Positions 2 to 12,963 of a stretch of 64,000 bases of DNA are shown here, piece by piece. Position 1 is the first letter of the stretch. Each line of letters begins with the position of its first letter. The stretch spans positions 1,289-65,288 of the forward strand of contig DATFLL010000050.1 of the NCBI GenBank assembly GCA_035267785.1. Reading direction: 5' to 3'. Source of the stretch: Gammaproteobacteria bacterium (GTDB lineage: Bacteria; Pseudomonadota; Gammaproteobacteria; DATFLL01). The notes beneath the pieces are model-generated. The model searched no databases. It saw only the letters and a list, made by a program, of their open reading frames with translations, and had not been told where the DNA came from. A program made the translations under genes and the position numbers.

Positions 2-739
2 ATCACCTTTGTCGGGTCCATTGTTGCGCTGATATTCCTACCGCGAGCCTCGGTCCCTGCGGATGCCGCGCTTCCGATGTCTCGAGGGCAAGGCCGCCTA
101 GCCGCGCTACTGAGTTCACCGGGGTGCCCGTTCATTGTCGCGGCGTGGGGTTTCAATCTGCTCGTCTTCCTGACCATGCAGGGCGTGCTGCTCGCAACGA
201 TGGTGCTGTTGGTCAAACACCGTGAGATCTATCTGTTCGGCATGCAGGCGAGGGGGACATCGGGCCTGGTCATGGCGGTTTTGATTGGGTGCTCGGCGCT
301 AATGGCGGTCGGCATCGGCCGGGCGATCGACAAAGTGGCGCTGCGGGCCACGCTGCCGGTTCCAGCGCTCGGTGTTTTCGCGGCGGGTTTCGGGACTCTG
401 GCGGTTGCCCATTCGACACTTGTGCTGATACTCGGGGCGGTGTTCGTCGGCCTTTCCTTCAATGGGATCACGTTGCCGATGATGGCGCTGCTCGGGGACG
501 TCACCAGCGAGGGTCAACACGGTCCTGCCGTCGGTATCTATCAACTGTTTGGCGACATCGGAGGCACAATCGGGCCGATCGCGGGCATTGAAGTCGGAAC
601 GAATATCGGTTTGGAGCCGCTGTATCTGGCCATCGCAGCGGTGATAGTGTTTGCCCTACCGTTCGCTCTCTGGCTAAGACGGTACGAACAGGCCCGATTG
701 GTACGTCGCGGAGCAGAGGCACAGGCCCGCGGCGGCTAA
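2..739 (+). CDS. MFS-type permease, C-terminal part (5' end outside window)
   Basis: The frame is open from the first bases of the window. The product has about 6 hydrophobic helices with small-residue loops (GDIGGTIGP), like the second half of major-facilitator transporters. Family-level guess only. Confidence 0.55.
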   Translation: MTFVGSIVALIFLPRASVPADAALPMSRGQGRLAALLSSPGCPFIVAAWGFNLLVFLTMQGVLLATMVLLVKHREIYLFGMQARGTSGLVMAVLIGCSALMAVGIGRAIDKVALRATLPVPALGVFAAGFGTLAVAHSTLVLILGAVFVGLSFNGITLPMMALLGDVTSEGQHGPAVGIYQLFGDIGGTIGPIAGIEVGTNIGLEPLYLAIAAVIVFALPFALWLRRYEQARLVRRGAEAQARGG

Positions 740-1209
740 CTGCGAATGGGCCGCGAGCAGAGCGGGTTCGAGGGGTACGCTCGTCCTCTCGCACGAGAGG
801 GGCGTCGCGGGTAGATCAGAGGGGCGTGTTCGGGCGCGAAGTCGGTGCCGCGGGCTCGCTGCCCGGCTCGGGTTGCTCCACGCCGATTCCTTTTTGCTGT
901 TGGCCCGTTCGCTCCATGTCCGCCGGTTTCGAGGCGGCCGCTACCCGGCCGTTACGCGTTCGACAAATGCGCACGCGAATTTCATTTCTGAAATTATTTC
1001 AAATCCGCACCGGCTGCCGTTGCTCCGCCCTGTTTGTATCTCACTGATTGTTATGTTGATCCGGTGCCGCGTCCGTTTTGGCACGGTCGTTGCGATGTAT
1101 CGATCAACGGCAAATCGCCTAACGCCGCGGCGCGGCGGTGGGCGGGACGGGAGTGGCAGTGGGAACGTCGCATTCGATTGGGTTCAATCCATGCACGAGG
1201 GGCGCAGAC

Positions 1210-1836
1210 ATGCGGGAACGGTGGAGGGGGTATGTCTGGGGGCTGCTCGTCAGCGTGGCGATCGCCGTCGGCGCGCCGGACGCCCGGGCGTTCGCCCACG
1301 GACCCGACTGGACCATTGGTCGGGCGGTCATCGTCACGATGCCCCGAGGCGGGCGAACCCCGCACGGTCTGTACCTGAAGCTCAGCCTGCGCAACGTCGG
1401 TACGCCCGGCCGGACGCCGGTGCGCATCTTCGGGCGGTGGGCGCTGGAGGAGGCCGCCGATCGGAATACTCGTGGTGCTGGTTCGCCAATCGGACCGGGC
1501 TGGGCCGGGCCGGCGCGCACGGATAACCAGCACGGTTCGTCGCCGACCGGTCGTTGGTCCGTGCCGAATGCGCCGTCCTACTCGCAGGCACCGTCCGCGC
1601 CGGGCATCCGGGCAGGCGGTGCGCAGCGACGGCAACTTCCGCGGGGAATGCGGTTGCTCGGAAGCTATCGGCGCGAGGTCAGCCTGAACCAGACGACCAT
1701 TCTGGCGGTTCCGCTCACGACGCTCGGTACGCCGCGGCGCGATATCCATCGCCTGGAGGTCGTGGTGATGACGGCGGCGGTGGTGACTGACCATCAGTTC
1801 GTCGAACTGGCGGCGAATCGGCGGGCGGGCTATTGA
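1210..1836 (+). CDS. hypothetical exported protein
   Basis: ATG at 1210 inside ORF 1138..1836. N-terminal signal-like segment GLLVSVAIAVGAPDARA. Third codon positions are mostly G/C in this frame. No recognisable domain, and the middle is low-complexity. Confidence 0.35.
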   Translation: MRERWRGYVWGLLVSVAIAVGAPDARAFAHGPDWTIGRAVIVTMPRGGRTPHGLYLKLSLRNVGTPGRTPVRIFGRWALEEAADRNTRGAGSPIGPGWAGPARTDNQHGSSPTGRWSVPNAPSYSQAPSAPGIRAGGAQRRQLPRGMRLLGSYRREVSLNQTTILAVPLTTLGTPRRDIHRLEVVVMTAAVVTDHQFVELAANRRAGY

Positions 1837-1878
1837 AGGCTCGCCGCATAGGCACGGGTTTTATCAACCAGACATGAG

Positions 1879-2628
1879 GTGAATCCAATGTTTCTCAATG
1901 ACCTGCATATCTCCCGCCTCGGTACGGCTCGGCTGTTGTTTGTGACGGCGGTGGCCTTGGGACTGAGCGGTTGCATGACTCCCAGTCAGCCTCACGCCGA
2001 CAACTCCGTGACAACGCACCGACTGGCCAGTCTGCCGCCCCCGAACGGCCCGGCCAAGAAGGTGACGATCTACCAGTTCACCAGCAGCGTGCCCGAGGTA
2101 GGCGCCCAAGCGGCTACCGACATGTTTACCACCGCATTGGTGAAATCACACCGCTTTGCCGTACTCGAGCGCCAGCGTCTCAGCGAGGGCGTGCTGCGAG
2201 AGAAGCAGATGAATTCGCAAGGCATGACCACGGGCAATGTCGGCCAGACCGCGTTGGCCGGCGCCGACTACATCTTTCACGGCACCGTCAGCGAAGCCAA
2301 TGCCAATGCATCGAGCAACGGTGTGGGGGCGACGGTGCGCGGGTTGGGAGTGGAGACCAGCGGCGCGAAGGCCGTGATCGCAGTCGATGTTCGGGTGGTC
2401 GACGCCCACAACGGAGCCGTGTTGGACGCGGTGGATGTACGCCGGGCGGTCAAACAGGGCGGCGTCGGCGTTTCGGGAATCGGCTCGTTCCTACAAAGCT
2501 TCACCAAGACAGACCTGCAGGGTGCCGATGCCAGCGTTCATTCCTCGCGCAAGGAAGGCGTGGATCGGGCGCTGCGAGAGTGCATCGAAGAGGCGGTCTA
2601 TCAGGTCGCCAAGCGGTTCGGTAACTGA
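1879..2628 (+). CDS. CsgG/HfaB-family outer-membrane lipoprotein
   Basis: Lipobox LGLSGC. Blocks TDMFTTALVKSHRFAVLERQRL and ADYIFHGTVSE...VIAVDVRVVDAHNGAVLDAV align to E. coli CsgG blocks TAMLVTALKDSRWFIPLERQGL and ANIMVEGSIIGYES...QIAVNLRVVNVSTGEILSSV. Confidence 0.8.
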   Translation: MNPMFLNDLHISRLGTARLLFVTAVALGLSGCMTPSQPHADNSVTTHRLASLPPPNGPAKKVTIYQFTSSVPEVGAQAATDMFTTALVKSHRFAVLERQRLSEGVLREKQMNSQGMTTGNVGQTALAGADYIFHGTVSEANANASSNGVGATVRGLGVETSGAKAVIAVDVRVVDAHNGAVLDAVDVRRAVKQGGVGVSGIGSFLQSFTKTDLQGADASVHSSRKEGVDRALRECIEEAVYQVAKRFGN

Positions 2629-2636
2629 AGGAGCGG

Positions 2637-3830
2637 GTGGGCGCCATGTCTCTGCGTTACCTGCCGTTCGCGCTTTTGCTTGGGTGCCTGCCCCTGATGG
2701 GGCGGGCCACCACCCCGCCGGGCGGCTGGCAGGTGAACGAGCTGCGGCTCAACGCGCCCACCGTTGGCGGTTTCTGGTACGGCGCAGCTTCGCCGTTGAG
2801 CCGTGGACTGAACGTCACCCAGGGCTATGCCGCCCTGTACGCAGTGGAGGTGCTGCCGGGCCTGAACTATACGGTCCAGCTGACGGTGCCGCACAGCCTC
2901 AAGGGTATTCAGGTCTTTGTGTACGACCGCTGGCCGCTGCTGCTCAAGGCACGCGCAATTCAACTGCCGACCGGGCCCGTCGTAGTGAGGCCGCAAGCGA
3001 GGCGGGTTACTTACCGCTGGCGCGTCGGGGTATCGGCACGCAGCACGGGCAGCCTGCTGTACATGCTGGTCCACTATCCACGCGACCCTGCACACCACCG
3101 CCGCTTGGCGCCCCGTCTGCTCGTCGCCTCGCCGCCGATCGGCCCTTCTCACCATATCGGCCACGGGGTGACCTATTTGCCGGGGCCGCGTCAGCTGGTA
3201 TTGCACGGAGACCGCTCCGCGGTGGCCTATGTGTTTCACCCGGCCGGACCTGACAGCCCGACTCGGTCGCGTCCAGTGTGGACGGTGCCGGGCGATCTCA
3301 TCAGTAACGCCCGTTTTACGGGGGGACTGAAGAACTGGGTGCCGCTGACCGGTGCCTCGGGGCAAGCAGCGCAGCCGGGCGTCGATACCGGTGGCTTGGC
3401 CCTGCCCGCCGGCACTGGCGTGCGCCAGGAGGTCGACGCCGATGTGTCCCGTGCAGAGTCGTTGATCCTGTGGGCGGATGTGCGTCTGGACGGGCCTTCC
3501 GGCGACATGCTGCAACAGCGGAACCCGGGTTTTGCGCTCGCCGTGTGTTATCAGGACGAGAAGGGTACCCGCCACTGTGGCGACACCGCCTATCGGGTGT
3601 CCTTCTCGACGGCGGGCGAGCGCGGTTCGCCCCTCAAAGGCGACGCGCAGGATCCGCGACAGCAGGTGCCGGCTGGACGCTGGGTTCGCTACCAGACCAA
3701 CCTCTTGGATATGAACCCGCCGCCGGTCCGCATCGATTCGCTGACACTGCGGGGCGGGGAGGGCGTGCGCGCCGCGCGGGTGCGGGAAGTCCACCTCATT
3801 TTGCGGAGTAACGACCATGCGCAACCGTAA
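2637..3830 (+). CDS. hypothetical secreted protein
   Basis: Starts 9 nt after the CsgG-like stop. Signal peptide LPFALLLGCLPLMGRA. The C-terminal third looks like a beta-sandwich or jelly-roll domain. No named family recognised. Confidence 0.6.
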   Translation: MGAMSLRYLPFALLLGCLPLMGRATTPPGGWQVNELRLNAPTVGGFWYGAASPLSRGLNVTQGYAALYAVEVLPGLNYTVQLTVPHSLKGIQVFVYDRWPLLLKARAIQLPTGPVVVRPQARRVTYRWRVGVSARSTGSLLYMLVHYPRDPAHHRRLAPRLLVASPPIGPSHHIGHGVTYLPGPRQLVLHGDRSAVAYVFHPAGPDSPTRSRPVWTVPGDLISNARFTGGLKNWVPLTGASGQAAQPGVDTGGLALPAGTGVRQEVDADVSRAESLILWADVRLDGPSGDMLQQRNPGFALAVCYQDEKGTRHCGDTAYRVSFSTAGERGSPLKGDAQDPRQQVPAGRWVRYQTNLLDMNPPPVRIDSLTLRGGEGVRAARVREVHLILRSNDHAQP

Positions 3831-4530
3831 TCTTTGGATTCTAAACATACTGGTGTGGAGCCTGTTGTGTGTGAGCGCACCGCTGGTCGCCGGACCGTTG
3901 GACCGTACCGACATGGGGCCGCGCGTCAACCCGGCGACCAACGACATGCTGCGCGTGCCGGGTGTGGTCGGCATGGACTATCAAAGCGCCGTGGGCGCAC
4001 TTCAGCAGGCCGGCCTCAATCCGCGTGTGAACAAGCTGCATAAGAAAACAAAGGAGTACGCGGGCGAGGAGGGGATGGTGGTCAAGCAGGTTCCATCGGC
4101 CGGCGGCGCGGCCATGCTCGGTTCATCGGTCAGTATTACGGTATATCTCCCGGGCAACATGGCGCTCGATCAAGGTCATCTGCCTGCCGGTGGAGCGCCG
4201 GCGCCCTATCCCGACGACGGCAGCGGCGGGTACGGGTCGCCCGGCGCCGAGCCGGCGGCAGACGGCCAAGGGGATGCTCCGAACGCGGGTGATTCTAGCG
4301 GCGGGGATGCCGGCCAGTTTGGTTCGGGAACATGGGGTGAACCCGCTGCGGCCCCGACGGCGAGCGTTGCCCCCGGTGTGGGCACGAATGGGCCGTCCGT
4401 ACCGCCGTCCCGGTGGCAGCTGCCGCCGGCCGGCGACCCCGCCGGCCCAACAGCCGCCCCGTCGGTGCCGGTCAAGCCCGAGGGTGAACATTATCTGCAC
4501 AATCCGCAACAGGGCGGGCAGCTGCGCTAA
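3817..4530 (+). CDS. PASTA-domain protein with Pro/Gly/Ala-rich tail
   Basis: Overlaps the previous gene by 14 nt. Has an N-terminal signal or anchor. VPGVVGMDYQSAVGALQQAGLNP...VVKQVPSAGGAAMLGSSVSITVYL matches the PASTA fold pattern. About 130 aa of P/G/A low complexity follow. Confidence 0.65.
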   Translation: MRNRNLWILNILVWSLLCVSAPLVAGPLDRTDMGPRVNPATNDMLRVPGVVGMDYQSAVGALQQAGLNPRVNKLHKKTKEYAGEEGMVVKQVPSAGGAAMLGSSVSITVYLPGNMALDQGHLPAGGAPAPYPDDGSGGYGSPGAEPAADGQGDAPNAGDSSGGDAGQFGSGTWGEPAAAPTASVAPGVGTNGPSVPPSRWQLPPAGDPAGPTAAPSVPVKPEGEHYLHNPQQGGQLR

Positions 4531-4569
4531 CGAACAACGGTCCACAAGCAAAATCACAGGAGTACCGTC

Positions 4570-5301
4570 ATGAGCGAAGACACCCACATTACATCAGCAT
4601 CGGCGACCAACGGTGGGGACAACCTGCCGTCCGCCGCTGGTATCGTCCAGACAGTTATCGCGGTCATAACGCGACCCTCCGAGTATTTCGAGGCGATGCC
4701 CCGCAACGGTGGTTTCGTACAGCCGCTGATCTTTATGGTGGTTATGGGGGTTGCGGCCGGTCTGGTGCATGCCGTGCTGGGGCTGCTGGGTTTGTTGCCG
4801 GGCGTGTCCGCCGCAATGGCCCTCGCGGCGATCGTGCTCGCGCCGATCCTGATTGCCATCTTTGGTTTCGTCGGTGCAGCGATTCTGTTCGTAATCTGGA
4901 AGCTTATGGGTTCGGAACAGGATTTTGAGACGGCCTATCGCTGTACAGCGTACGGCAGCGCCATCTCTCCAGTGACTCAGATATTGTCGGTGATTCCCTA
5001 TCTGGGCACGGTCCTGGGTCTGGCTTGGTGGACGTTCATTTTGGTCACTGCCAGCACGCGCGTTCATAGAATCCGTCAAGGTGTCGCGGCGGCGGTGTTT
5101 GGCATCATCGCTCTCCTGTTGGCAGTTGCCAGCGTGGGTGCGGAGATGGCGGCGCGCCGAATGCAGTCGGTATTGGAACAGGAAACGCAACAGCTCAGAT
5201 CGGGAACGGCCAACGGCCAGGATGCCGGTCAGGCGATGCAGGACCTGGGCAAGATGCTTCAGAAACTGGGCAAGAACGCAAAGCAGGGTGACGGCAAGTG
5301 A
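4570..5301 (+). CDS. Yip1-like polytopic membrane protein
   Basis: About 5 TM helices follow a cytoplasmic N-terminus (RPSEYFEAMPRNGGFVQPLIFMVVMG), the typical Yip1-domain layout. Charged coiled C-terminal tail. Confidence 0.55.
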   Translation: MSEDTHITSASATNGGDNLPSAAGIVQTVIAVITRPSEYFEAMPRNGGFVQPLIFMVVMGVAAGLVHAVLGLLGLLPGVSAAMALAAIVLAPILIAIFGFVGAAILFVIWKLMGSEQDFETAYRCTAYGSAISPVTQILSVIPYLGTVLGLAWWTFILVTASTRVHRIRQGVAAAVFGIIALLLAVASVGAEMAARRMQSVLEQETQQLRSGTANGQDAGQAMQDLGKMLQKLGKNAKQGDGK

Positions 5302-5346
5302 CCGGCCGTTGCGGTATTTGAATCGCAAGTAGTCAGGAGAAAAATC

Positions 5347-6123
5347 ATGAATCGCACAGCGGTTTTGGCCTCCCTTTCCACCGTGCTCCTGTTCGGTGCG
5401 GCATCCGCGGCGCAGGCCGGGCTGATTATTACGCAGGTGGAGAAGCAGTCGGACAGTCACAAGACGACCAAGAGCACCTTGTATATCGAGGGGAATAGTA
5501 TGGCTGTGCGTGCCGAAGACGGCACCGGAATGATCTTCGATGGGGACAAGCAGATATCCTGGAACTTCGACACGCATCGCAAGTATTACGTGAAGATGAC
5601 CGCCGCCGAAATGAAGGCGATGGTGGCCAAGTCGAAGGCGATGGCCGACAAGATGATGAAGGAACAGCTCAAGCACATGTCGCCCAAGGTGCGAAAGCAG
5701 ATGCTGGCCGAGATGAAGAAAGAGAAGAAGGGCCCGACGTACAAGAAGACCGGCTCCGTGCGCAGGGTGGGCAAATGGAAGTGCACGCCGGTGGCCAAGT
5801 ATTCATCCGACGGTGAGCAGCAGGATCAGATGTGTGTTGCGACGTTCGAGGAACTCGGTATCACGGCCGGCGACCGAAAGGTCTTCCGGGCGATGAACCG
5901 GTTTATTGAAGCGGCAGGCAGCGGCGATGATTGCGACGGCTGCAGCAGCTCAGGCATCTTGTCCAAGCGGGCGGAACAACAGCTCGGGTTCAGAGGCCTA
6001 CCCGTCGAGGAGGGAGACAACTTCACCAAGACGACGCTTGTGTCGATACGACACGGCGCTGTGCCCGCCAGCGCCTTCAAACTGCCCGCCGGGCTGGAAG
6101 AACGAAAAATGCCCGGTATGTGA
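5347..6123 (+). CDS. secreted protein (DUF4412-like?)
   Basis: Signal peptide ending AAQA, then a beta-rich start (GLIITQVEKQSD...TLYIEGNSMAV) and a Lys/Met-rich helical insert. The domain assignment is tentative. Confidence 0.55.
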   Translation: MNRTAVLASLSTVLLFGAASAAQAGLIITQVEKQSDSHKTTKSTLYIEGNSMAVRAEDGTGMIFDGDKQISWNFDTHRKYYVKMTAAEMKAMVAKSKAMADKMMKEQLKHMSPKVRKQMLAEMKKEKKGPTYKKTGSVRRVGKWKCTPVAKYSSDGEQQDQMCVATFEELGITAGDRKVFRAMNRFIEAAGSGDDCDGCSSSGILSKRAEQQLGFRGLPVEEGDNFTKTTLVSIRHGAVPASAFKLPAGLEERKMPGM

Positions 6124-6168
6124 GTCGGGTGGAGTTTGGAGAGGACTGGCAAACGGGAGGGCACTACG

Positions 6169-7242
6169 ATGAGATGGCAACGGGGGTTTGGGATCGGCGC
6201 GATACTGCTCTGGGCGCTGGCCGGAGCCGCGGCCTCTGCCGGCCAGGGGCTGGTCGCGGGGATCTACCCGGGCGCGGTGCGCGACAAACAGGCCGGGGAT
6301 GTCACAGTGCAGGTCTATCTGACCCATGCCTCGTTTAAGCAGGTGAGCACCTGGTATGCGGGGAAAGTGGGGGCGATGACCGAGAGCGCGGCCAATTCGC
6401 TCGGCCATGCGGACGCGGGCGGCGGTAACCCCGGTCGGACGGTCGGCGAAATCGGCGCGGACGTGGAGGCGATTCGGCGAGGACATGTCGTGATGGACCA
6501 GAGCACCGTTGTGCGCTCGCTCAAGGACATGACTGCGACGAAGGATGTTGGCGTGGTCTGCGAGGCGATGCGGCGCAATACAGCCAAGGATGGAGCTGCC
6601 GACAGTGCTCCGGCGGCCCCGAACGAGGACATGAGCGGGTCGGCCGATGCCCAGGCGGCAGCCATGCAGCGCCAATTGCAGCAGATGCAGGCCAAATTGA
6701 ACCAGGCGAATCGGCAGATGCTGGCCGAAACGACTCCGCTGGACCGGAAGATTGGTGCGATGAGCGATCTATTCGCGGGGCTTCGCGACGAGGCGATGGC
6801 CGGTCTACACAGCCACACCAAGCAGGACTTGTTGAAGGTCTACGCCAAATACAAACACCTGGAAACATCGTGGTATCCGACGGTCAAGACCGCCAACGGG
6901 CCCGAGAGCTACGATCGCTGGCTTCTGGCGCGCGACCGAGCGAAGCTAAAGGGTGAAATGCATGCAGGAGCGGCGCCGGCTCAAGCGGGAGCCGCCGATA
7001 TGCAGTCCTTGTCCGCCAAGATACAGGCCGCCGCGGCCGCCGGTCGCATGGACGAGGTGCAGCGTCTCAGTGCGCAGATGCGCCAGGGGATGGCGGGTGC
7101 GCAGACCGACGCCCACCAAGAGCGCGCGGCGCAGCTCGAGGATCGGTGGGATTTCTGGCTCGCCTTTCTCAAGGACCTCGACGCGCACGCGTACCGCACG
7201 CGCATCTGGATCAATACCCAGCCGTCGAGCTGGGGTTACTGA
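6169..7242 (+). CDS. secreted coiled-coil protein, unknown function
   Basis: ATG at 6169 with GGGAGG 8 nt upstream. Signal peptide ILLWALAGAAASAGQG. Long Ala/Gln/Met-rich helical segments. Confidence 0.55.
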   Translation: MRWQRGFGIGAILLWALAGAAASAGQGLVAGIYPGAVRDKQAGDVTVQVYLTHASFKQVSTWYAGKVGAMTESAANSLGHADAGGGNPGRTVGEIGADVEAIRRGHVVMDQSTVVRSLKDMTATKDVGVVCEAMRRNTAKDGAADSAPAAPNEDMSGSADAQAAAMQRQLQQMQAKLNQANRQMLAETTPLDRKIGAMSDLFAGLRDEAMAGLHSHTKQDLLKVYAKYKHLETSWYPTVKTANGPESYDRWLLARDRAKLKGEMHAGAAPAQAGAADMQSLSAKIQAAAAAGRMDEVQRLSAQMRQGMAGAQTDAHQERAAQLEDRWDFWLAFLKDLDAHAYRTRIWINTQPSSWGY

Positions 7243-7293
7243 GGGCCGCAGGCCATGGTCCGGGTATACAGGGACCCGGTCATTCGATCGACG

Positions 7294-7449
7294 ATGATGC
7301 TGCAACTCGCCCTGGTTGGCCTATTGTTGACGGCGGTTGGTTTGGCCATGCCGGGCAAAGTCGCCGCGGTACGTTTTGCACCGGTGCTGACAAGCAGTCC
7401 ACGGGTACCCGATGCGAACAAGGTGTATTTTCCTCCCTATACGAAATGA
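7294..7449 (+). CDS. possible small secreted peptide
   Basis: MMLQLALVGLLLTAVGLAMPGKVAA signal-like start followed by about 26 residues. Last co-directional ORF of the CsgG-like operon. Weak codon bias. Confidence 0.25.
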   Translation: MMLQLALVGLLLTAVGLAMPGKVAAVRFAPVLTSSPRVPDANKVYFPPYTK

Positions 7450-7647
7450 GCCGCGTCGCGATCCGTTTCGCGCGAGCGTAAGGCGTGACCGCGAGCGTGC
7501 CTTACGAATTAATAACAAAGTTAAATTAATCATTAGGCATATTTCAATTGACCGGCGTCAATGCCTATGCGACACCGTAAGTCATACTAATAAGCGTATG
7601 GCGCCAGCCGAATCTTTGCATGTCTCGGGACTGGGTGGAAAGTCTGT

Positions 7648-10600
7648 ATGTCGGATTTGAAGGACAGCACCGAATCTCGCTTGCCTGCAAAGCTAAATCC
7701 ACCGCTTCAGCCCAAAGCGGTCTATCGGCGAAAGCGACTATATCGCCGGATCAAACAGGTCTTGGATTCCGGTGCAGCCCTCTGGGTGCAAGGGCCGGCC
7801 GGTGCGGGCAAGACAACGTTAACGTCGAGTTTCCTGCAGGCCGAGAACCGGCCCACGCTCTGGTATCAGCTCGATTCAGTCGACGGCGAACCGGCGACTT
7901 TGATTCGGCATTTGCGTACGTTGTTCGCCACCGTGGCGGATGCGCAGGTGCTACCGACGTTCGACCCCAGACTAGGGCAGGACCCACTGCGATTCGCCAA
8001 GGAATTCTTCGAGGCGTTTTTCGAACACGTTCCCCTTCAAACCGTCCTCGTGCTCGATGACTATCAAGATGTCGAAGCGGCTGGAAGGGTGGACGCCTTT
8101 ATCGCGGCGGCCCTGAAAGTTCTGCCCAAGGACCGCCATTTGATCGTCTTGAGCCGCGGCGATGTCCCCAGGGCATTGACGCGTGCCCTGGCCGATGGCC
8201 GTCTCGATCGGCTCGGGTGGGATGAGCTGCGCCTGGACGACGAGGAGGCTCGCCACATTGCGCACCTGCGGGTCCCGCGCAAACGCCAGGTCGACATTCC
8301 TGTGTCGAATCTCAATCGCCGGGCGCAGGGCTGGGTGGCGGGCTTCGTGCTGATGGTCCAGCAGGCAGCGGCTGGAGGCGCGTTGGGTGACCCGATAAGC
8401 TCGCCGACACCGGATACGGTCAACGACTATTTTGCCACCGAACTGTTCGACCGCGGCAAGGGCGCCGAGCTGGACTTGCTGATGGCGCTATCGTTTTTTC
8501 CACGGTTTTCCCTCCAGATGGCAAAGGCGATCTCGGACGACCCTCAGGCGGCCAAGGTGGTCGAGGACCTGTACAGGCGCAACTTCTTTCTCACGCGCCA
8601 CGAGTCCGAGTCGGGCCAGATCTATTTTCGACTCCACCCCTTGTTTTCGGATTTTCTCCGTCACGAGGCACAGCGGCGACTGACGGATTCGACACGGCGT
8701 TCGCTGCAGTTGCGTGCCGCACAAATTCTCGCCGCCGATGGCGATACGGGCGATGCGGTACGGCTCTATCAGGCAGCCGGGGAGTGGCCGGCTGCCGAAT
8801 CGCTGATCACCGCCGAGGCGCCGCGACGCTACCAGGTCGGTGAGTTTCGGGTCATTCAACACTGGCTCGCCGGGCTACCTGCGGCGAGGATCGGGTCGAA
8901 TGCGTGGTTGTCGTTATGGCGCGGTGCCTGCGCGGCTGTCACGCGAAGCGCGTCCGGGCGGGCCGATCTGCAACACGCGTATGCGCTCTTTCGCGAAACG
9001 AACGAGCAGCCCGGTGCTCTTCTCGCCTGGTGTATGGTGGTCGAAGGGTACGTTCTCGAATGGGGTGACATGCATCCGCTCGATACCTGGATAGCCGCCT
9101 TCGACGATCTGGAGCCGGTCCTTGCGCAGGTGCCGGCGGCGCTTGGTCAGCGCGCGACGCTGGCGATGTTTTCGGCGATGTCCTACCGCTCTCCGTGGCG
9201 GGGACGATGCGACGAATGGGCAAGTTATTCGGAGGAGGTTTTCACGCAGACGTCGGATCCGGTGATGCGGGCCTTCATGGCCAGCCAGCTGGCGATGTTC
9301 TATGCCTTTTCGCGCGGCGACCTTGGGCGGGCGGCGGTGTTCGTCACTGAGATAAAAGGGCAGGTCGACGAACGGTCGATCAACCCATTGGCCGAAATCG
9401 TATTTCTGGTCCATTACGCCGTCGTCAACTTATGGAACACCGGCGACGTCGACGCCTGCCTGGAAATGGTGCGTAAAGGGATCGAGGTCGCCGAGCGCGC
9501 GGGCGTGATGACGATGAATTTCTTTCTCGCCGCCGTCGGTGCGTGGGCGTCGATTGCCGCGGGCGATTACCTCGAAGCGGAGGGCTATCTCGATCGATTG
9601 AGCCGCACGTTCGATCAGGGGGCCTTGCTCAACCGCTGCGTGTTTCACGATACGTTCGCGATTCTGAATCTGCACCGCGGGAACCTGGAGCTTGCTCGAT
9701 CGCAGGCGGAGATGAGCCTGGAGTTGGCTCGGCGCGGCGGCATGCCGTATGCCGAGTCGGCGTGTCTTCTGACCAATTCGCGGGTGTATAGCCTCGCGGG
9801 CGAGTGGGAGGAAGCCGAGCGCTATCGACGTCTGGCCGCTGAGCTTGCGAATTCGATGGACAATCGCTTCGTGTTCTATCACTTGTTGTGGTTCGAGGCG
9901 GCGGATCGTCTACAGCGCGACGGGGTAGAGGCGGCAATCGACCCGCTGCGCAAGGCGCTGGGTGAGGGTCGGGCGGGGACCTTTTTCGCCAATCTATGGT
10001 TGGAGCGGGATACGTTCTCTCGTTTGTGCCATGTGGCTCTGGCCCACGACCTCGAGACGGACTACGTCCGCCGCCTGATTGCGGGGGCGGGTTTGCCGGC
10101 CCTGGACCCTGGCTGGGCGAACGCGGGTTGGCCGTTTCGTCTGCGAGTGGAGGTCCTGTCTGGGTTGCGTGTGCAGGAGCTCACGGTCGACGGATATCGA
10201 CCCGTGTCGGTGCAAGGGCGCGGGGCGCAGCTGCTCGAGGCATTGGTGTGGTCCGGTGGCCAAGGGGTGAGTCAGGAACGTCTGGCCGATCTCCTCTGGC
10301 CGGACGCCGAGGGCGATGCGGCGCGGCGCAGCTTCGATACGACGCTGCACCGGCTGAGGCGAGCGGTCGGCGACGAGCGGTTGTTGCGCCTGGAAGGCGG
10401 GCGTCTGAGTCTTGACCCGGGTTTGGCGTGGACCGATGCCGGAGCGTTGGAAGCCGCGTGCAAGGATCTCACGCATGCGCTGCACACAGTCGGCGCGCCA
10501 ACGACTGTCGAGGCACTCGGTCGGCGGCTTACGGAAGGCGCGTCCGTCATGGCCGCCAATCACCCGGGCCGCGTCGGGAGCGAGGCCCTGGACGCCGGCC

Positions 10601-10890
10601 TGCGCCGAGAGATGGAGCGGGCCCTCGATCTCGTCGGCCACTATTGGCTCACTCGTGAGAACTGGGAACTTGCCGTCGAGGCGTTCGAGTCGCGTCTGCG
10701 ACTCAATCCCCTCGCGGAAGGGGCTTATCTGGAACTGATGCGGATTCACGTCGGGCGGGGATTCCCGGTGGAGGCCCTTTCCGTCTATGAACGGTGTAAA
10801 GAAAATGTCAAAAACCTGCTCGGGATTGGCCCCGGACCGGAGATAGAGAACCTCTACCGGCGCATGCGTGCCTCTGCGGGCGATGCCTGA
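7648..10890 (+). CDS. P-loop NTPase (MalT/STAND-like) + helical repeats + C-terminal OmpR-type wHTH and BTAD transcriptional regulator
   Basis: Walker A GPAGAGKTT and Walker B VLVLDDYQ. About 550 aa of helical or TPR-like region. wHTH LADLLWPDAEGDAARRSFDTTLHRLRRAVG. BTAD AYLELMRIHVGRGFPVEALSVYERCKENVKNLLGIGPGPEIENLYRRM. Confidence 0.8.
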   Translation: MSDLKDSTESRLPAKLNPPLQPKAVYRRKRLYRRIKQVLDSGAALWVQGPAGAGKTTLTSSFLQAENRPTLWYQLDSVDGEPATLIRHLRTLFATVADAQVLPTFDPRLGQDPLRFAKEFFEAFFEHVPLQTVLVLDDYQDVEAAGRVDAFIAAALKVLPKDRHLIVLSRGDVPRALTRALADGRLDRLGWDELRLDDEEARHIAHLRVPRKRQVDIPVSNLNRRAQGWVAGFVLMVQQAAAGGALGDPISSPTPDTVNDYFATELFDRGKGAELDLLMALSFFPRFSLQMAKAISDDPQAAKVVEDLYRRNFFLTRHESESGQIYFRLHPLFSDFLRHEAQRRLTDSTRRSLQLRAAQILAADGDTGDAVRLYQAAGEWPAAESLITAEAPRRYQVGEFRVIQHWLAGLPAARIGSNAWLSLWRGACAAVTRSASGRADLQHAYALFRETNEQPGALLAWCMVVEGYVLEWGDMHPLDTWIAAFDDLEPVLAQVPAALGQRATLAMFSAMSYRSPWRGRCDEWASYSEEVFTQTSDPVMRAFMASQLAMFYAFSRGDLGRAAVFVTEIKGQVDERSINPLAEIVFLVHYAVVNLWNTGDVDACLEMVRKGIEVAERAGVMTMNFFLAAVGAWASIAAGDYLEAEGYLDRLSRTFDQGALLNRCVFHDTFAILNLHRGNLELARSQAEMSLELARRGGMPYAESACLLTNSRVYSLAGEWEEAERYRRLAAELANSMDNRFVFYHLLWFEAADRLQRDGVEAAIDPLRKALGEGRAGTFFANLWLERDTFSRLCHVALAHDLETDYVRRLIAGAGLPALDPGWANAGWPFRLRVEVLSGLRVQELTVDGYRPVSVQGRGAQLLEALVWSGGQGVSQERLADLLWPDAEGDAARRSFDTTLHRLRRAVGDERLLRLEGGRLSLDPGLAWTDAGALEAACKDLTHALHTVGAPTTVEALGRRLTEGASVMAANHPGRVGSEALDAGLRREMERALDLVGHYWLTRENWELAVEAFESRLRLNPLAEGAYLELMRIHVGRGFPVEALSVYERCKENVKNLLGIGPGPEIENLYRRMRASAGDA

Positions 10891-11040: not shown

Positions 11041-12963
<1,923 letters not shown>

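What the first reader, a model, noticed from the sequence alone, without database searches (positions are those of the whole stretch)
1879..7449. CsgG-family channel operon without any curli or holdfast partners
Seen: six or seven co-directional ORFs have 9- to 51-nt gaps or overlaps. The first is a clear CsgG/HfaB-family lipoprotein. The others are exported or membrane proteins: an unknown 397-aa protein, a PASTA protein, a Yip1-like membrane protein, two unknown secreted proteins and possibly a 51-aa peptide. None shows CsgA/B repeat motifs or resembles CsgE/F or HfaA/D. By my by-eye alignment, the segment corresponding to the E. coli CsgG constriction loop (FKPYPASNFSTAVPQ region) is about 10 residues shorter here. 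Inference: a CsgG-type outer-membrane conduit serving an uncharacterised cargo and periplasmic machinery.
Basis: partly seen in the sequence, partly recalled or inferred. Interest (0 to 1): 0.62.

Follow-up and report, generated by a model that had tools for sequence, protein, structure and literature searches.

The report
Loop-less CsgG channel with PASTA partner
This is a real and conserved but unstudied envelope gene set: a relative of the curli outer-membrane pore CsgG that lacks the pore-narrowing loop is always encoded with a two-domain sugar-binding-like protein and a cell-wall-binding (PASTA) protein with a long floppy acidic tail, which suggests an undescribed way of exporting or anchoring material at the surface of Gram-negative bacteria.

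Summary
ORFs at 1879-7242 are co-directional and tightly packed. The first is a CsgG-family lipoprotein (Pfam 100.7 bits; best fold matches are CsgG structures). Its constriction loop is 11 residues shorter than in E. coli CsgG, while both transmembrane hairpin segments are kept.

The genome has no other CsgG-family gene and no CsgE, CsgF or curlin repeats.

Across 80 species genomes carrying this CsgG subfamily, homologues at 53% identity or more form one clade (support 100/100). In that clade:
- a ~400-aa protein B lies directly downstream in 25 of 25 loci with enough sequence
- a PASTA protein C follows in 18 of 20

B folds as two jelly-roll sandwiches, the second resembling CBM16/CBM22. 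C has a signal peptide, an invariant LDR..R.N..M.R.PGV peptide, one PASTA domain and an acidic disordered tail.

Yip1, a DUF4412-like protein and protein F recur in distant loci in shuffled order.

The 64-aa ORF has no homologue.

Best reading: a sigma-54-controlled, wide-bore CsgG-type module, linked to the wall through its PASTA partner, with B and C as partner or cargo. Function is inferred, not shown. It is a new variant of a known kind.

The parts
1079..1094 (+). Sigma-54 promoter-like site, TGGCACGGTCGTTGCG (-24 GG / -12 GC), 116 nt upstream of ORF0
   Evidence: It is the only match with 1 mismatch or fewer in the 64-kb window on either strand. An equivalent TGGCAC-N5-TTGC lies upstream of ORF0 in L003/L004, L008, L010 and L017, where it is a perfect match. 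A sigma-54 activator gene is nearby in those genomes where the contig reaches far enough.
1210..1836 (+). ORF0: exported 208-aa protein with a signal peptide, two conserved blocks around a variable low-complexity insert, and no Pfam family
   Evidence: It is conserved and ends just before the CsgG-like gene in 6 genomes, including a Thermodesulfobacteriota MAG (phmmer E down to 9e-21, jackhmmer 3e-54). Alignment A3 has 30 invariant columns. No Pfam match.
1879..2628 (+). A: CsgG-family outer-membrane lipoprotein (lipobox LSGC) with both TM hairpin segments kept and the constriction loop deleted
   Evidence: Pfam CsgG 100.7 bits. PDB CsgG by sequence: E 4e-11, or 7e-17 with the family profile. 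AF2 model pLDDT 71; the top Foldseek matches are CsgG 6l7c/4uv2/4uv3, followed by GNA1162, PelC and LpoB. The 11-residue loop deletion, a TM1 of equal length and a TM2 about 6 aa longer are shown.
2637..3830 (+). B: exported 397-aa protein made of two jelly-roll beta-sandwich domains. The N-domain always accompanies the CsgG-like gene; the C-domain is CBM-like.
   Evidence: AF2 pLDDT 85.4, pTM 0.83. Foldseek matches CBM16 (TM 0.62-0.67), tandem CBM22 and neuropilin b1b2. B is directly downstream of A in 25 of 25 loci. In the sister clade only the N-domain is kept (profile positions about 5-167). The C-domain recurs in surface proteins that carry PPC, CBM35/6, dockerin, T9SS-tail or OmpA domains. 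Signal peptides are of the signal peptidase I type.
3817..4530 (+). C: exported PASTA protein: signal peptide, invariant N-terminal peptide (G)PLDR..R.N..M.R.PGV, one PASTA domain, and an acidic disordered tail of about 120 aa rich in Gly, Pro and Ala
   Evidence: PASTA 35.8 bits here and 27.8-33.8 bits in 9 homologues. Tails run from about 10 to 480 aa; in 17 of the 19 measured K+R is 0.03 or less and D+E is 0.02-0.27. C follows B in 18 of 20 loci.
4570..5301 (+). D: Yip1-domain integral membrane protein (accessory)
   Evidence: Pfam Yip1 57.8 bits, with hydrophobic segments. It lies in the same neighbourhood but in different positions in L011, L025, L027 and L028 (upstream of A) and in L003, L008-L010 (downstream).
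5347..6123 (+). E: exported DUF4412-like protein (accessory)
   Evidence: The window protein has no Pfam match of its own. Jackhmmer links it to neighbours of A in L008, L014, L016, L025, L027, L028 and L080. Five of 8 family members match DUF4412, best E 5.8e-10.
6136..7242 (+). F: exported 357-368-aa protein with a helical, coiled-coil-like C-terminal half and no known family (accessory)
   Evidence: All homologues are annotated as hypothetical proteins. F recurs near A in L003, L008, L010, L011, L014, L016 and L032.
7255..7449 (+). G: 64-aa ORF, probably not a gene
   Evidence: There is no jackhmmer or tblastn match in any related locus, including those with 70-78% identical A.
7648..10890 (+). 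MalT-like STAND ATPase with a C-terminal wHTH and BTAD domain; probable linked regulator
   Evidence: Matches AAA_16, Trans_reg_C and BTAD, and the N-terminal half of MalT at E 1.8e-40. It is syntenic downstream of the module in L003, L004, L008, L009 and L010.
11041..12963 (+). Membrane-anchored HAMP plus sigma-54 activator (bEBP); probable activator of the promoter at 1079
   Evidence: Sigma54_activat 239 bits, plus HAMP and HTH_8. It is syntenic in L003, L004, L009 and L010, and lies directly upstream of the promoter and ORF0 in L017.

Best explanation
This is an operon driven by a sigma-54 promoter: ORF0, A, B, C, D, E and F. It encodes a distinct clade of CsgG-type outer-membrane oligomer together with two obligatory exported partners.

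Shown:
- A has the CsgG fold and keeps both segments that form the 36-stranded barrel in CsgG.
- A lacks the 11-residue insertion that forms the 0.9-nm constriction.
- B (two jelly-roll domains) and C (PASTA domain plus acidic disordered tail) are co-inherited with A across phyla.

Inferred mechanism:
- A assembles into a CsgG-like barrel whose lumen is much wider than that of curli CsgG.
- The N-terminal sandwich of B, the part kept wherever this branch of A occurs, docks on A's periplasmic face as an adaptor or plug, in the position CsgE takes in curli.
- B's CBM-like domain and C's PASTA domain bind envelope glycan, tying the complex to peptidoglycan.
- The invariant N-terminal peptide of C is the recognition element.
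- C's unfolded acidic tail, or C or B as a whole, is passed through the pore and displayed on the surface.
- The Yip1 membrane protein, the DUF4412-like protein and F are lineage-specific helpers.
- The neighbouring membrane-bound sigma-54 activator switches the operon on in response to an external signal.
For: CsgG identity and retained hairpins:
- Pfam and PDB sequence matches and the alignment with E. coli CsgG.
- Fold matches: CsgG first, then the ring lipoproteins PelC, GNA1162 and LpoB, which lack the hairpins.

Loop deletion:
-.
- In CsgG the constriction is 0.9 nm inside a barrel of 4 nm inner diameter and is formed by Phe, Asn and Tyr rings (PMC4594475).

Co-inheritance of A, B and C:
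- Orthology between this window and Geopsychrobacter or delta-type MAGs: B 31-33% identical, E 1e-34 to 5e-52; C 47% identical over the PASTA part.
- Census: B adjacent in 25 of 25 loci, C in 18 of 20.
- The triad clade has 100/100 support, and its sister clade keeps only B's N-domain.
- Gaps between genes are 4-nt or overlaps, which fits translational coupling.

C as substrate or tether:
- Invariant post-signal peptide.
- Tails of variable length, poor in basic residues and low in hydrophobic residues, rich in G/P/S/T/Q/N/Y. This composition resembles unfolded CsgG substrates.

Link to the cell wall:
- PASTA is present in every C tested.
- In the more distant branch of the same loop-less subfamily, OmpA-C-type peptidoglycan-binding proteins take the downstream position.

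Regulation:
- Sigma-54 promoter conserved upstream of ORF0, with activator genes nearby.
Against: - No oligomer could be modelled, so pore formation and bore width are not measured.
- TM2 did not align by HMMER, and AF2 confidence is low across both hairpins (pLDDT below 50 at 144-161 and 195-223).
- Only about 12 of 28 members of the triad clade keep the lipobox Cys; the rest have a GWG N-terminus of the signal peptidase I type. In E. coli, non-lipidated CsgG stays in a soluble pre-pore form (PDB 4uv2 title).
- An open 3-4 nm hole in the outer membrane would be harmful unless plugged, and no plug is shown.
- Nothing shows which protein, if any, is exported.
- B's C-domain family occurs in many extracellular proteins, so B could be cargo rather than adaptor.
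- There are no expression data; no RNA runs hold this sequence.
- The set is rare and patchy: it is absent from 60 relatives of this genome.
Confidence: 0.4

Rival explanations
1. This is a non-secretory envelope scaffold. A forms a ring under or in the outer membrane, as PelC, LpoB, FlgT or the TolB N-domain do. B and C fasten it to peptidoglycan. The complex would act as an outer-membrane-to-wall tether or as a regulator or sensor of wall synthesis, and nothing would pass through it.
For: - The same fold is used by the ring or adaptor lipoproteins PelC, GNA1162, LpoB, FlgT and the TolB N-domain.
- Pfam LpoB is a marginal second match at 23.2 bits.
- The partner is always a wall-binding module: PASTA in the triad clade, OmpA-C in the distant branch.
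- Many clade members are not lipoproteins.
- In four genomes C's disordered stretch is a linker to a further C-terminal domain.
Against: - The two hairpin insertions that distinguish pore-forming CsgG from PelC or LpoB are kept at full length. TM1 is among the best-conserved stretches shared with E. coli CsgG.
- The LpoB equivalog model scores 27 bits against a cut-off of 110.
- No PBP or wall-synthesis gene is linked.
Confidence: 0.3
2. This is a polysaccharide export or anchoring device. A would funnel a glycan, as PelC does, or hold one, as the holdfast anchor HfaB does. B's CBM-like domain would bind the polymer.
For: - PelC is among the fold matches.
- B's C-domain resembles CBM16/CBM22 and co-occurs with CBM35/6 and dockerin in other proteins.
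- HfaB gives a weak NCBIfam match at 28.9 bits.
Against: - No glycosyltransferase, polymerase, Wza, PelB or holdfast gene appears in the window operon or in the conserved neighbourhoods.
- The HfaB equivalog cut-off of 300 is far from met.
Confidence: 0.12
3. This is an ordinary curli or holdfast system whose partner genes lie elsewhere in the genome.
For: The only support is the Pfam CsgG family name.
Against: - The genome (92% complete) has no CsgE, CsgF or curlin repeat; E. coli is detected by the same searches as a positive control.
- CsgG equivalog 45.9 bits against 505; HfaB 28.9 bits against 300.
- The constriction loop is missing.
Confidence: 0.02
4. The genes are neighbours by chance or by shared descent only and do not work together.
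For: There is no direct interaction or expression evidence.
Against: - The A-B-C order is kept across Gammaproteobacteria, Zetaproteobacteria, Desulfuromonadales, Syntrophaceae/Desulfatiglans-type deltas, Bacteriovoracaceae and a Spirochaetia MAG, while the flanks differ completely.
- The accessories D, E and F recur in shuffled positions.
- Gene spacing is 4-nt or overlapping.
Confidence: 0.04

Closest known systems
Curli secretion (type VIII): E. coli CsgG with CsgE, CsgF and CsgA/CsgB
   Same: - The same protein family and fold.
- An N-terminal lipobox in the window copy.
- Both barrel-forming hairpin segments.
- Small exported partners encoded alongside.
- A candidate substrate that is unfolded and rich in Gly, Gln, Asn and Ser.
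   Different: - 22-30% identity to E. coli CsgG across the subfamily members aligned; 28% for the window's protein.
- The 11-residue constriction-loop segment carrying Tyr51 is missing, and Phe56 is replaced by Val.
- About 30 C-terminal residues are missing.
- There is no CsgE, CsgF or curlin repeat anywhere in the genome.
- The partners are a tandem jelly-roll protein and a PASTA protein.
- Control is by sigma-54 rather than CsgD.
Caulobacter holdfast anchor HfaA-HfaB-HfaD
   Same: A CsgG/HfaB-family outer-membrane protein is encoded with exported partners that end up at the surface and hold a glycan.
   Different: - The HfaB model scores only 28.9 bits against a cut-off of 300.
- No partner matches a holdfast family.
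- No holdfast synthesis genes are linked.
PelC, the dodecameric lipoprotein ring of Pel polysaccharide export, and LpoB/GNA1162-type lipoproteins
   Same: They share the core alpha/beta fold (Foldseek probability 1.0) and a short loop at the position of the CsgG C-loop.
   Different: These proteins lack the two long hairpin insertions that A shares with CsgG. No pel or PBP genes are linked.
PASTA domains of PBP2x and PknB/PrkC-type kinases
   Same: C carries one PASTA domain above the Pfam cut-off.
   Different: C has no transpeptidase or kinase domain. It is a small exported protein of a diderm bacterium with an acidic disordered tail and a family-specific N-terminal peptide.

Membership tests
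CsgG/HfaB family (Pfam PF03783) | Score above the Pfam gathering threshold | tested here: met
   100.7 bits against 20.8, covering residues 66-243.
CsgG/HfaB family (Pfam PF03783) | CsgG fold | tested here: met
   The AF2 model's best PDB matches are CsgG 6l7c, 4uv2 and 4uv3 (E about 1e-7 to 3e-8, probability 1.0, TM 0.36-0.50).
CsgG-type pore | Two hairpin insertions (TM1, TM2) that build the barrel | tested here: inconclusive
   TM1 aligns without gaps to E. coli TM1 and shares the GVGA..G.G.(D/E)T motif. A TM2 segment is present and about 6 aa longer, but HMMER did not align it, and AF2 confidence is low in both segments.
CsgG-type pore | Constriction loop with stacked Tyr51, Asn55 and Phe56 rings | tested here: not met
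   An 11-residue deletion removes Tyr51; Asn55 aligns with Ser and Phe56 with Val. The loop length is fixed at 14 in all 71 subfamily members that matched the pattern.
CsgG-type pore | N-terminal lipidation (lipobox Cys) | tested here: met
   The window protein has LSGC. Only about 12 of 28 members of the triad clade keep the Cys.
CsgG-type pore | Nonameric membrane-inserted assembly | not testable with these tools
   Only monomer prediction was available.
Curli system (csgBAC/csgDEFG) | CsgG equivalog score | tested here: not met
   NF011731 scores 45.9 bits against a cut-off of 505.
Curli system (csgBAC/csgDEFG) | CsgE and CsgF partners and curlin-repeat subunits | tested here: not met
   There is no match in the operon or in the 92%-complete genome. 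The E. coli control is found by the same searches.
Holdfast anchor (HfaABD) | HfaB equivalog score | tested here: not met
   NF037935 scores 28.9 bits against a cut-off of 300.
Holdfast anchor (HfaABD) | HfaA/HfaD partners | tested here: inconclusive
   No operon protein matches any NCBIfam or Pfam holdfast model at E 0.1 or better. I did not confirm that HfaA and HfaD models are in those libraries.
LpoB (PBP1b activator) | Equivalog score | tested here: not met
   TIGR02722 scores 27.2 bits against 110.55. Pfam LpoB scores 23.2 against 22.3, as a secondary match under CsgG.
PASTA domain (PF03793), protein C | Score above the gathering threshold | tested here: met
   35.8 bits against 23.2 here, and 27.8-33.8 bits in 9 homologues.
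Yip1 (PF04893), protein D | Score above the gathering threshold | tested here: met
   57.8 bits against 28.6.
DUF4412 (PF14371), protein E | Score above the gathering threshold | tested here: inconclusive
   The window protein has no match of its own. Five of 8 aligned family members match, best E 5.8e-10.

The most novel reading that the evidence does not exclude
This would be a third, undescribed branch of CsgG-type (type VIII-like) secretion. A loop-less, wide-bore CsgG barrel, plugged or gated by a tandem jelly-roll partner and tied to peptidoglycan through a PASTA protein, would pass a small folded domain or thread an acidic disordered tail to the cell surface. The host lineages live in sediments, and several belong to groups I know as iron or metal cyclers (Desulfuromonadales, Geobacteraceae-related clades, Zetaproteobacteria). 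There the acidic, Gly/Tyr-rich tails could form a surface brush that binds cations or minerals.
Probability: 0.2. Interest if true: 0.75.

Novelty: new variant of a known kind. Interest (0 to 1): 0.55.

Why it matters
- **Breadth of CsgG biology.** CsgG is the model peptide-diffusion channel of Gram-negative bacteria and a workhorse pore of commercial nanopore sequencing. Its defining functional element is the 0.9-nm constriction. A natural, conserved clade that keeps the barrel hairpins but has lost the constriction, and has exchanged all curli partners for a jelly-roll protein and a PASTA protein, would show that the CsgG scaffold serves a second kind of envelope task.
- **A possible new pore.** Such a clade would offer a naturally wide CsgG-type pore for study.
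- **PASTA in a diderm.** A PASTA domain would be placed in the periplasm of diderm bacteria, outside any PBP or kinase.
- **A route to experiment.** The minimal A-B-C form exists in a cultured, non-pathogenic bacterium, Geopsychrobacter electrodiphilus (assembly GCA_000384395.1), so the idea can be tested directly.

Tried and rejected
- **Curli or holdfast partners.** I searched the operon (Pfam, NCBIfam) and the whole genome (CsgE, CsgF, Curlin_rpt). Nothing was found.
- **The 64-aa ORF G as a gene.** Rejected: there is no homologue in any related locus.
- **A shared N-terminal tag on several cargo proteins.** The LDR..R.N motif occurs only in the PASTA protein, plus one unrelated internal match.
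- **Homology between B and the OmpA-type proteins that follow distant A homologues.** hhalign probability was about 0.1, so rejected.
- **Sequence search of the B profile against PDB.** Only a marginal CBM16 match (E 0.08) appeared; the fold search was needed.
- **Sigma-70 promoter and terminator scan of 700-7700.** Nothing exceeded the level seen in shuffled sequence.
- **RNA evidence.** Only DNA metagenome runs hold the sequence.
- **Literature.** There were no papers for CsgG plus PASTA domain, and nothing relevant for CsgG-like operons or CsgG in Geobacter.
- **Presence in the genome's own relatives.** B is absent from all 60, so vertical conservation within the lineage cannot be claimed.

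Full report
**1. What is in the window**

Between 1879 and 7449 the + strand carries seven packed ORFs:

| ORF | Coordinates | Length |
|---|---|---|
| A | 1879-2628 | 249 aa (246 aa from ATG 1888, the start used by database records) |
| B | 2637-3830 | 397 aa |
| C | 3817-4530 | 237 aa |
| D | 4570-5301 | 243 aa |
| E | 5347-6123 | 258 aa |
| F | 6136-7242 | 368 aa |
| G | 7255-7449 | 64 aa |

Spacings are 8, -14, 39, 45, 12 and 12 nt.

- A matches Pfam CsgG at 100.7 bits, C matches PASTA at 35.8 bits and D matches Yip1 at 57.8 bits.
- B, E, F and G match no Pfam or NCBIfam family.
- A has the lipobox LSGC.
- B, C, E, F and ORF0 have N-terminal signal peptides, and D has several hydrophobic helices.

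**2. The CsgG-like protein**

- Against PDB sequences, A finds only CsgG: E 4e-11, or 7e-17 with a 28-member family profile.
- The AF2 monomer model has mean pLDDT 71. It has a confident core and low-confidence hairpins.
- Its best fold matches are CsgG in pore, pre-pore and CsgF-bound forms. GNA1162, PelC, FlgT, LpoB and the TolB N-domain follow.

The alignment with E. coli K-12 CsgG (fetched as L088) agrees with the HMMER alignments on four points:
- An 11-residue deletion sits exactly in the constriction loop. It removes the stretch containing Tyr51. Asn55 aligns with Ser70 and Phe56 with the invariant Val71.
- TM1 has the same length and shares the motif GVGA..G.G.(D/E)T.
- The TM2 segment is present and about 6 residues longer.
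- The last 30 or so residues of CsgG are missing.

The loop length between VTIY and TDMF is 14 in all 71 subfamily members that matched the pattern, against 25 in E. coli.

In CsgG the loop forms a 0.9-nm constriction inside a barrel of 4 nm inner diameter. The stacked Phe/Asn/Tyr rings were reported as required among CsgG-like translocators (PMC4594475). A therefore has the barrel-forming features of CsgG but not its constriction.

One caveat: only about 12 of 28 members of the closest clade keep the lipidated Cys. The others have a GWG N-terminus of the signal peptidase I type.

**3. No curli or holdfast context**

- The genome is 3.1 Mb and 92% complete. It has a single CsgG-family gene.
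- It has no CsgF, CsgE or curlin-repeat match, while E. coli is detected as a control by the same searches.
- The equivalog models for CsgG, HfaB and LpoB are all far below their cut-offs.

**4. Conservation of the neighbourhood**

The word-indexed search found 234 homologues of A at E ≤ 0.001 (best 120 listed), most about 240-245 aa long.

Three first look-ups showed the same A, B (about 400 aa) and PASTA order. These were in Geopsychrobacter electrodiphilus, in a gammaproteobacterial MAG and in a delta-type MAG, with unrelated flanks. B and C there are true homologues of the window proteins:
- B is 31-33% identical, E 1e-34 to 5e-52.
- C is 47% identical over the PASTA part.

A scan of one genome per species returned 80 loci. 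I called six-frame ORFs and ran jackhmmer with each window protein. After removing duplicates:

| Identity of A homologue | B directly downstream | PASTA gene follows |
|---|---|---|
| 53% or more | 25 of 25 loci with at least 1.3 kb downstream (23 full length) | 18 of 20 loci with at least 2.7 kb |
| 47.5-53% | 10 of 14 (mostly the N-domain only) | 1 of 11 |
| below 47.5% | 0 of 29 | 0 of 26 |

- In the middle band the B-like protein is about 210 aa. It covers only B's N-terminal domain, profile positions about 5-167.
- A maximum-likelihood tree of A puts all full-length-B loci in one clade with 100/100 support. That clade also holds one locus with PASTA but no B, and one locus cut by a contig end.
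- The short-B loci form the sister clade, with 98/89 support.
- The triad clade spans Gammaproteobacteria, Zetaproteobacteria/Mariprofundaceae, Hydrogenophilales, Desulfuromonadales/Geothermobacter, Syntrophaceae- and Desulfatiglans-type lineages, Bacteriovoracaceae and one Spirochaetia MAG.
- B is absent from 60 relatives of the window's own genome. The set is therefore rare and patchy, which suggests horizontal spread.

**5. The partners**

*Protein B*
- The AF2 model is confident (pLDDT 85.4, pTM 0.83) and shows two jelly-roll beta-sandwiches.
- Foldseek matches CBM16 (TM 0.62-0.67 on the C-domain), tandem CBM22, neuropilin b1b2 and other galactose-binding-like sandwiches.
- A full scan of 1.84 billion representatives found about 25 full-length clusters. 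It found 766 proteins in total at E 0.001 or better, most sharing only the C-domain.
- In larger proteins that domain sits beside PPC, CBM35/6, cohesin/dockerin, PKD, T9SS-tail and OmpA domains. It is therefore a mobile module of surface proteins.

*Protein C*
- Every C has a signal peptide and then an invariant peptide, (G)PLDR..R.N..M.R.PGV.
- One PASTA domain follows.
- The tail runs from about 10 to 480 aa. It is rich in G/P/S/T/Q/N/Y and acidic. K+R is 0.03 or less in 17 of the 19 tails measured, and hydrophobic residues are few.
- In four genomes the tail leads to a further C-terminal domain of about 180 aa.

*Proteins D, E and F*
- D (Yip1), E and F recur near A in distant genomes, but in other positions. 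D and E lie upstream of A in L025, L027 and L028, and F lies downstream in L011, L014 and L016. Shuffled order of this kind is the usual sign of functional linkage.
- E belongs to a divergent DUF4412 family.
- F has only hypothetical relatives.

*ORF G*
- G has no relative at all.

**6.

- ORF0 (1210-1836) is an exported 208-aa protein. It is conserved immediately upstream of A in six genomes, including a Thermodesulfobacteriota MAG.
- At 1079-1094 lies TGGCACGGTCGTTGCG. It is the only match with one mismatch or fewer to the sigma-54 consensus in the whole window.
- Equivalent sites precede ORF0 in L003/L004, L008, L010 and L017, where the match is perfect.
- These genomes also carry the HAMP sigma-54 activator (window 11041-12963) and the MalT-like STAND/BTAD regulator (7648-10890) next to the module. 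In L017 the activator gene lies directly upstream of the promoter.
- The unit is therefore best drawn as promoter, ORF0, A, B, C, D, E, F plus two regulators.

**7. The more distant branch of the same loop-less subfamily**

This branch includes Burkholderiales, Arenimonas, Steroidobacteraceae and others.
- It lacks B and C.
- One or two OmpA-C-domain proteins lie directly downstream.
- A DUF3617 lipoprotein often lies just upstream, and a Ser/Thr kinase with TPR repeats lies further upstream.
- The OmpA-type proteins are not homologous to B.

A peptidoglycan-binding partner thus seems to be the common theme of the subfamily.

**8. Interpretation**

Shown:
- a distinct CsgG clade without the constriction insertion
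- strict co-inheritance with B and C
- the folds and domain content of the partners
- a conserved sigma-54 promoter

Inferred:
- A forms a CsgG-like barrel of much wider bore.
- B's N-domain docks on it as an adaptor or plug.
- C is held to peptidoglycan by PASTA and recognised through its invariant N-terminal peptide.
- C's unfolded acidic tail, or a small folded domain, reaches the surface through A.

I give this 0.4.

The main rival, at 0.3, is a non-secretory ring that ties the outer membrane to the wall or reports on it. The PelC/LpoB-type fold relatives, the wall-binding partners and the frequent loss of lipidation favour it. The full-length hairpins argue against it.

Lower-ranked rivals:
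- A polysaccharide role (0.12) lacks any linked sugar-polymer gene.
- Classical curli or holdfast (0.02) and chance adjacency (0.04) are close to excluded.

**9. Novelty**

- All partners are annotated as hypothetical proteins or only as 'PASTA domain-containing'.
- No paper in the searched library links CsgG with PASTA.
- Other notes of this scan describe several different uncharacterised CsgG-type operons. One first-stage note, from another genome, describes the same small protein / CsgG / CBM-like / PASTA order. That repeats the observation but is not independent proof.

I class this as a new variant of a known kind and score interest at 0.55. It is solidly conserved and has a structural twist in a famous pore family. 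Its function is untested, and it belongs to a growing list of orphan CsgG-like systems.

Noticed in passing
window 1079-1836: A sigma-54 promoter-like site (1079-1094) and an exported 208-aa ORF0 (1210-1836) precede the CsgG-like gene. Both are conserved in relatives, so the operon starts about 800 nt upstream of the reported start.
   Followed up: yes
window 7255-7449: The 64-aa ORF after F has no homologue in any related locus. The 400-nt stretch up to the STAND regulator gene is more likely an untranslated leader or promoter region.
   Followed up: partly
L005, L013, L015-L018, L022-L024, L036, L083 (N-termini of A homologues): Roughly half of the triad clade has replaced the lipobox Cys with a conserved GWG motif after the signal peptide. 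These copies are unlikely to be lipoproteins. How they would reach or insert into the outer membrane is unexplained.
   Followed up: partly
L060, L063, L064, L070-L072, L077, L087 (downstream of A); L057, L062, L065, L066, L073, L075, L081 (upstream of A): In the distant branch of the loop-less subfamily, the gene is followed by one or two OmpA-C-domain proteins. It is often preceded by a DUF3617 lipoprotein, with a Ser/Thr kinase carrying TPR repeats further upstream. This looks like a second uncharacterised module built on the same lipoprotein.
   Followed up: partly
L011:8326-9594, L014:7421-9352, L016:9914-11710, L017:4024-5838: Long forms of the PASTA protein carry an extra conserved C-terminal globular domain of about 180 aa after the disordered stretch (motifs such as WNRLVKKTSWA.IGPR.L and GRLISTGGRVFITP). 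It matches no Pfam family.
   Followed up: no
L011:7188-8291, L028:9786-10781, L014:3883-4995: By eye, a further exported protein family of 330-370 aa shares AKAKF.A.V.P..L.L.V...G and ACNKI motifs. It sits between B and C, or upstream of A, in Desulfuromonadales and Zetaproteobacteria loci.
   Followed up: no
window 3250-3830 (C-terminal domain of B): This domain belongs to a large module family that no Pfam model matched. There are 766 representative proteins at E 0.001 or better. They include proteins of up to about 2000 aa, and the larger ones scanned carry PPC, CBM35/6, dockerin, PKD, T9SS-tail and OmpA domains.
   Followed up: partly
whole window (source organism): Near-identical sequence is present in soil, mangrove, salt-marsh and sediment metagenomes. 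Only one other genome of the same family is held, and it lacks protein B.
   Followed up: partly
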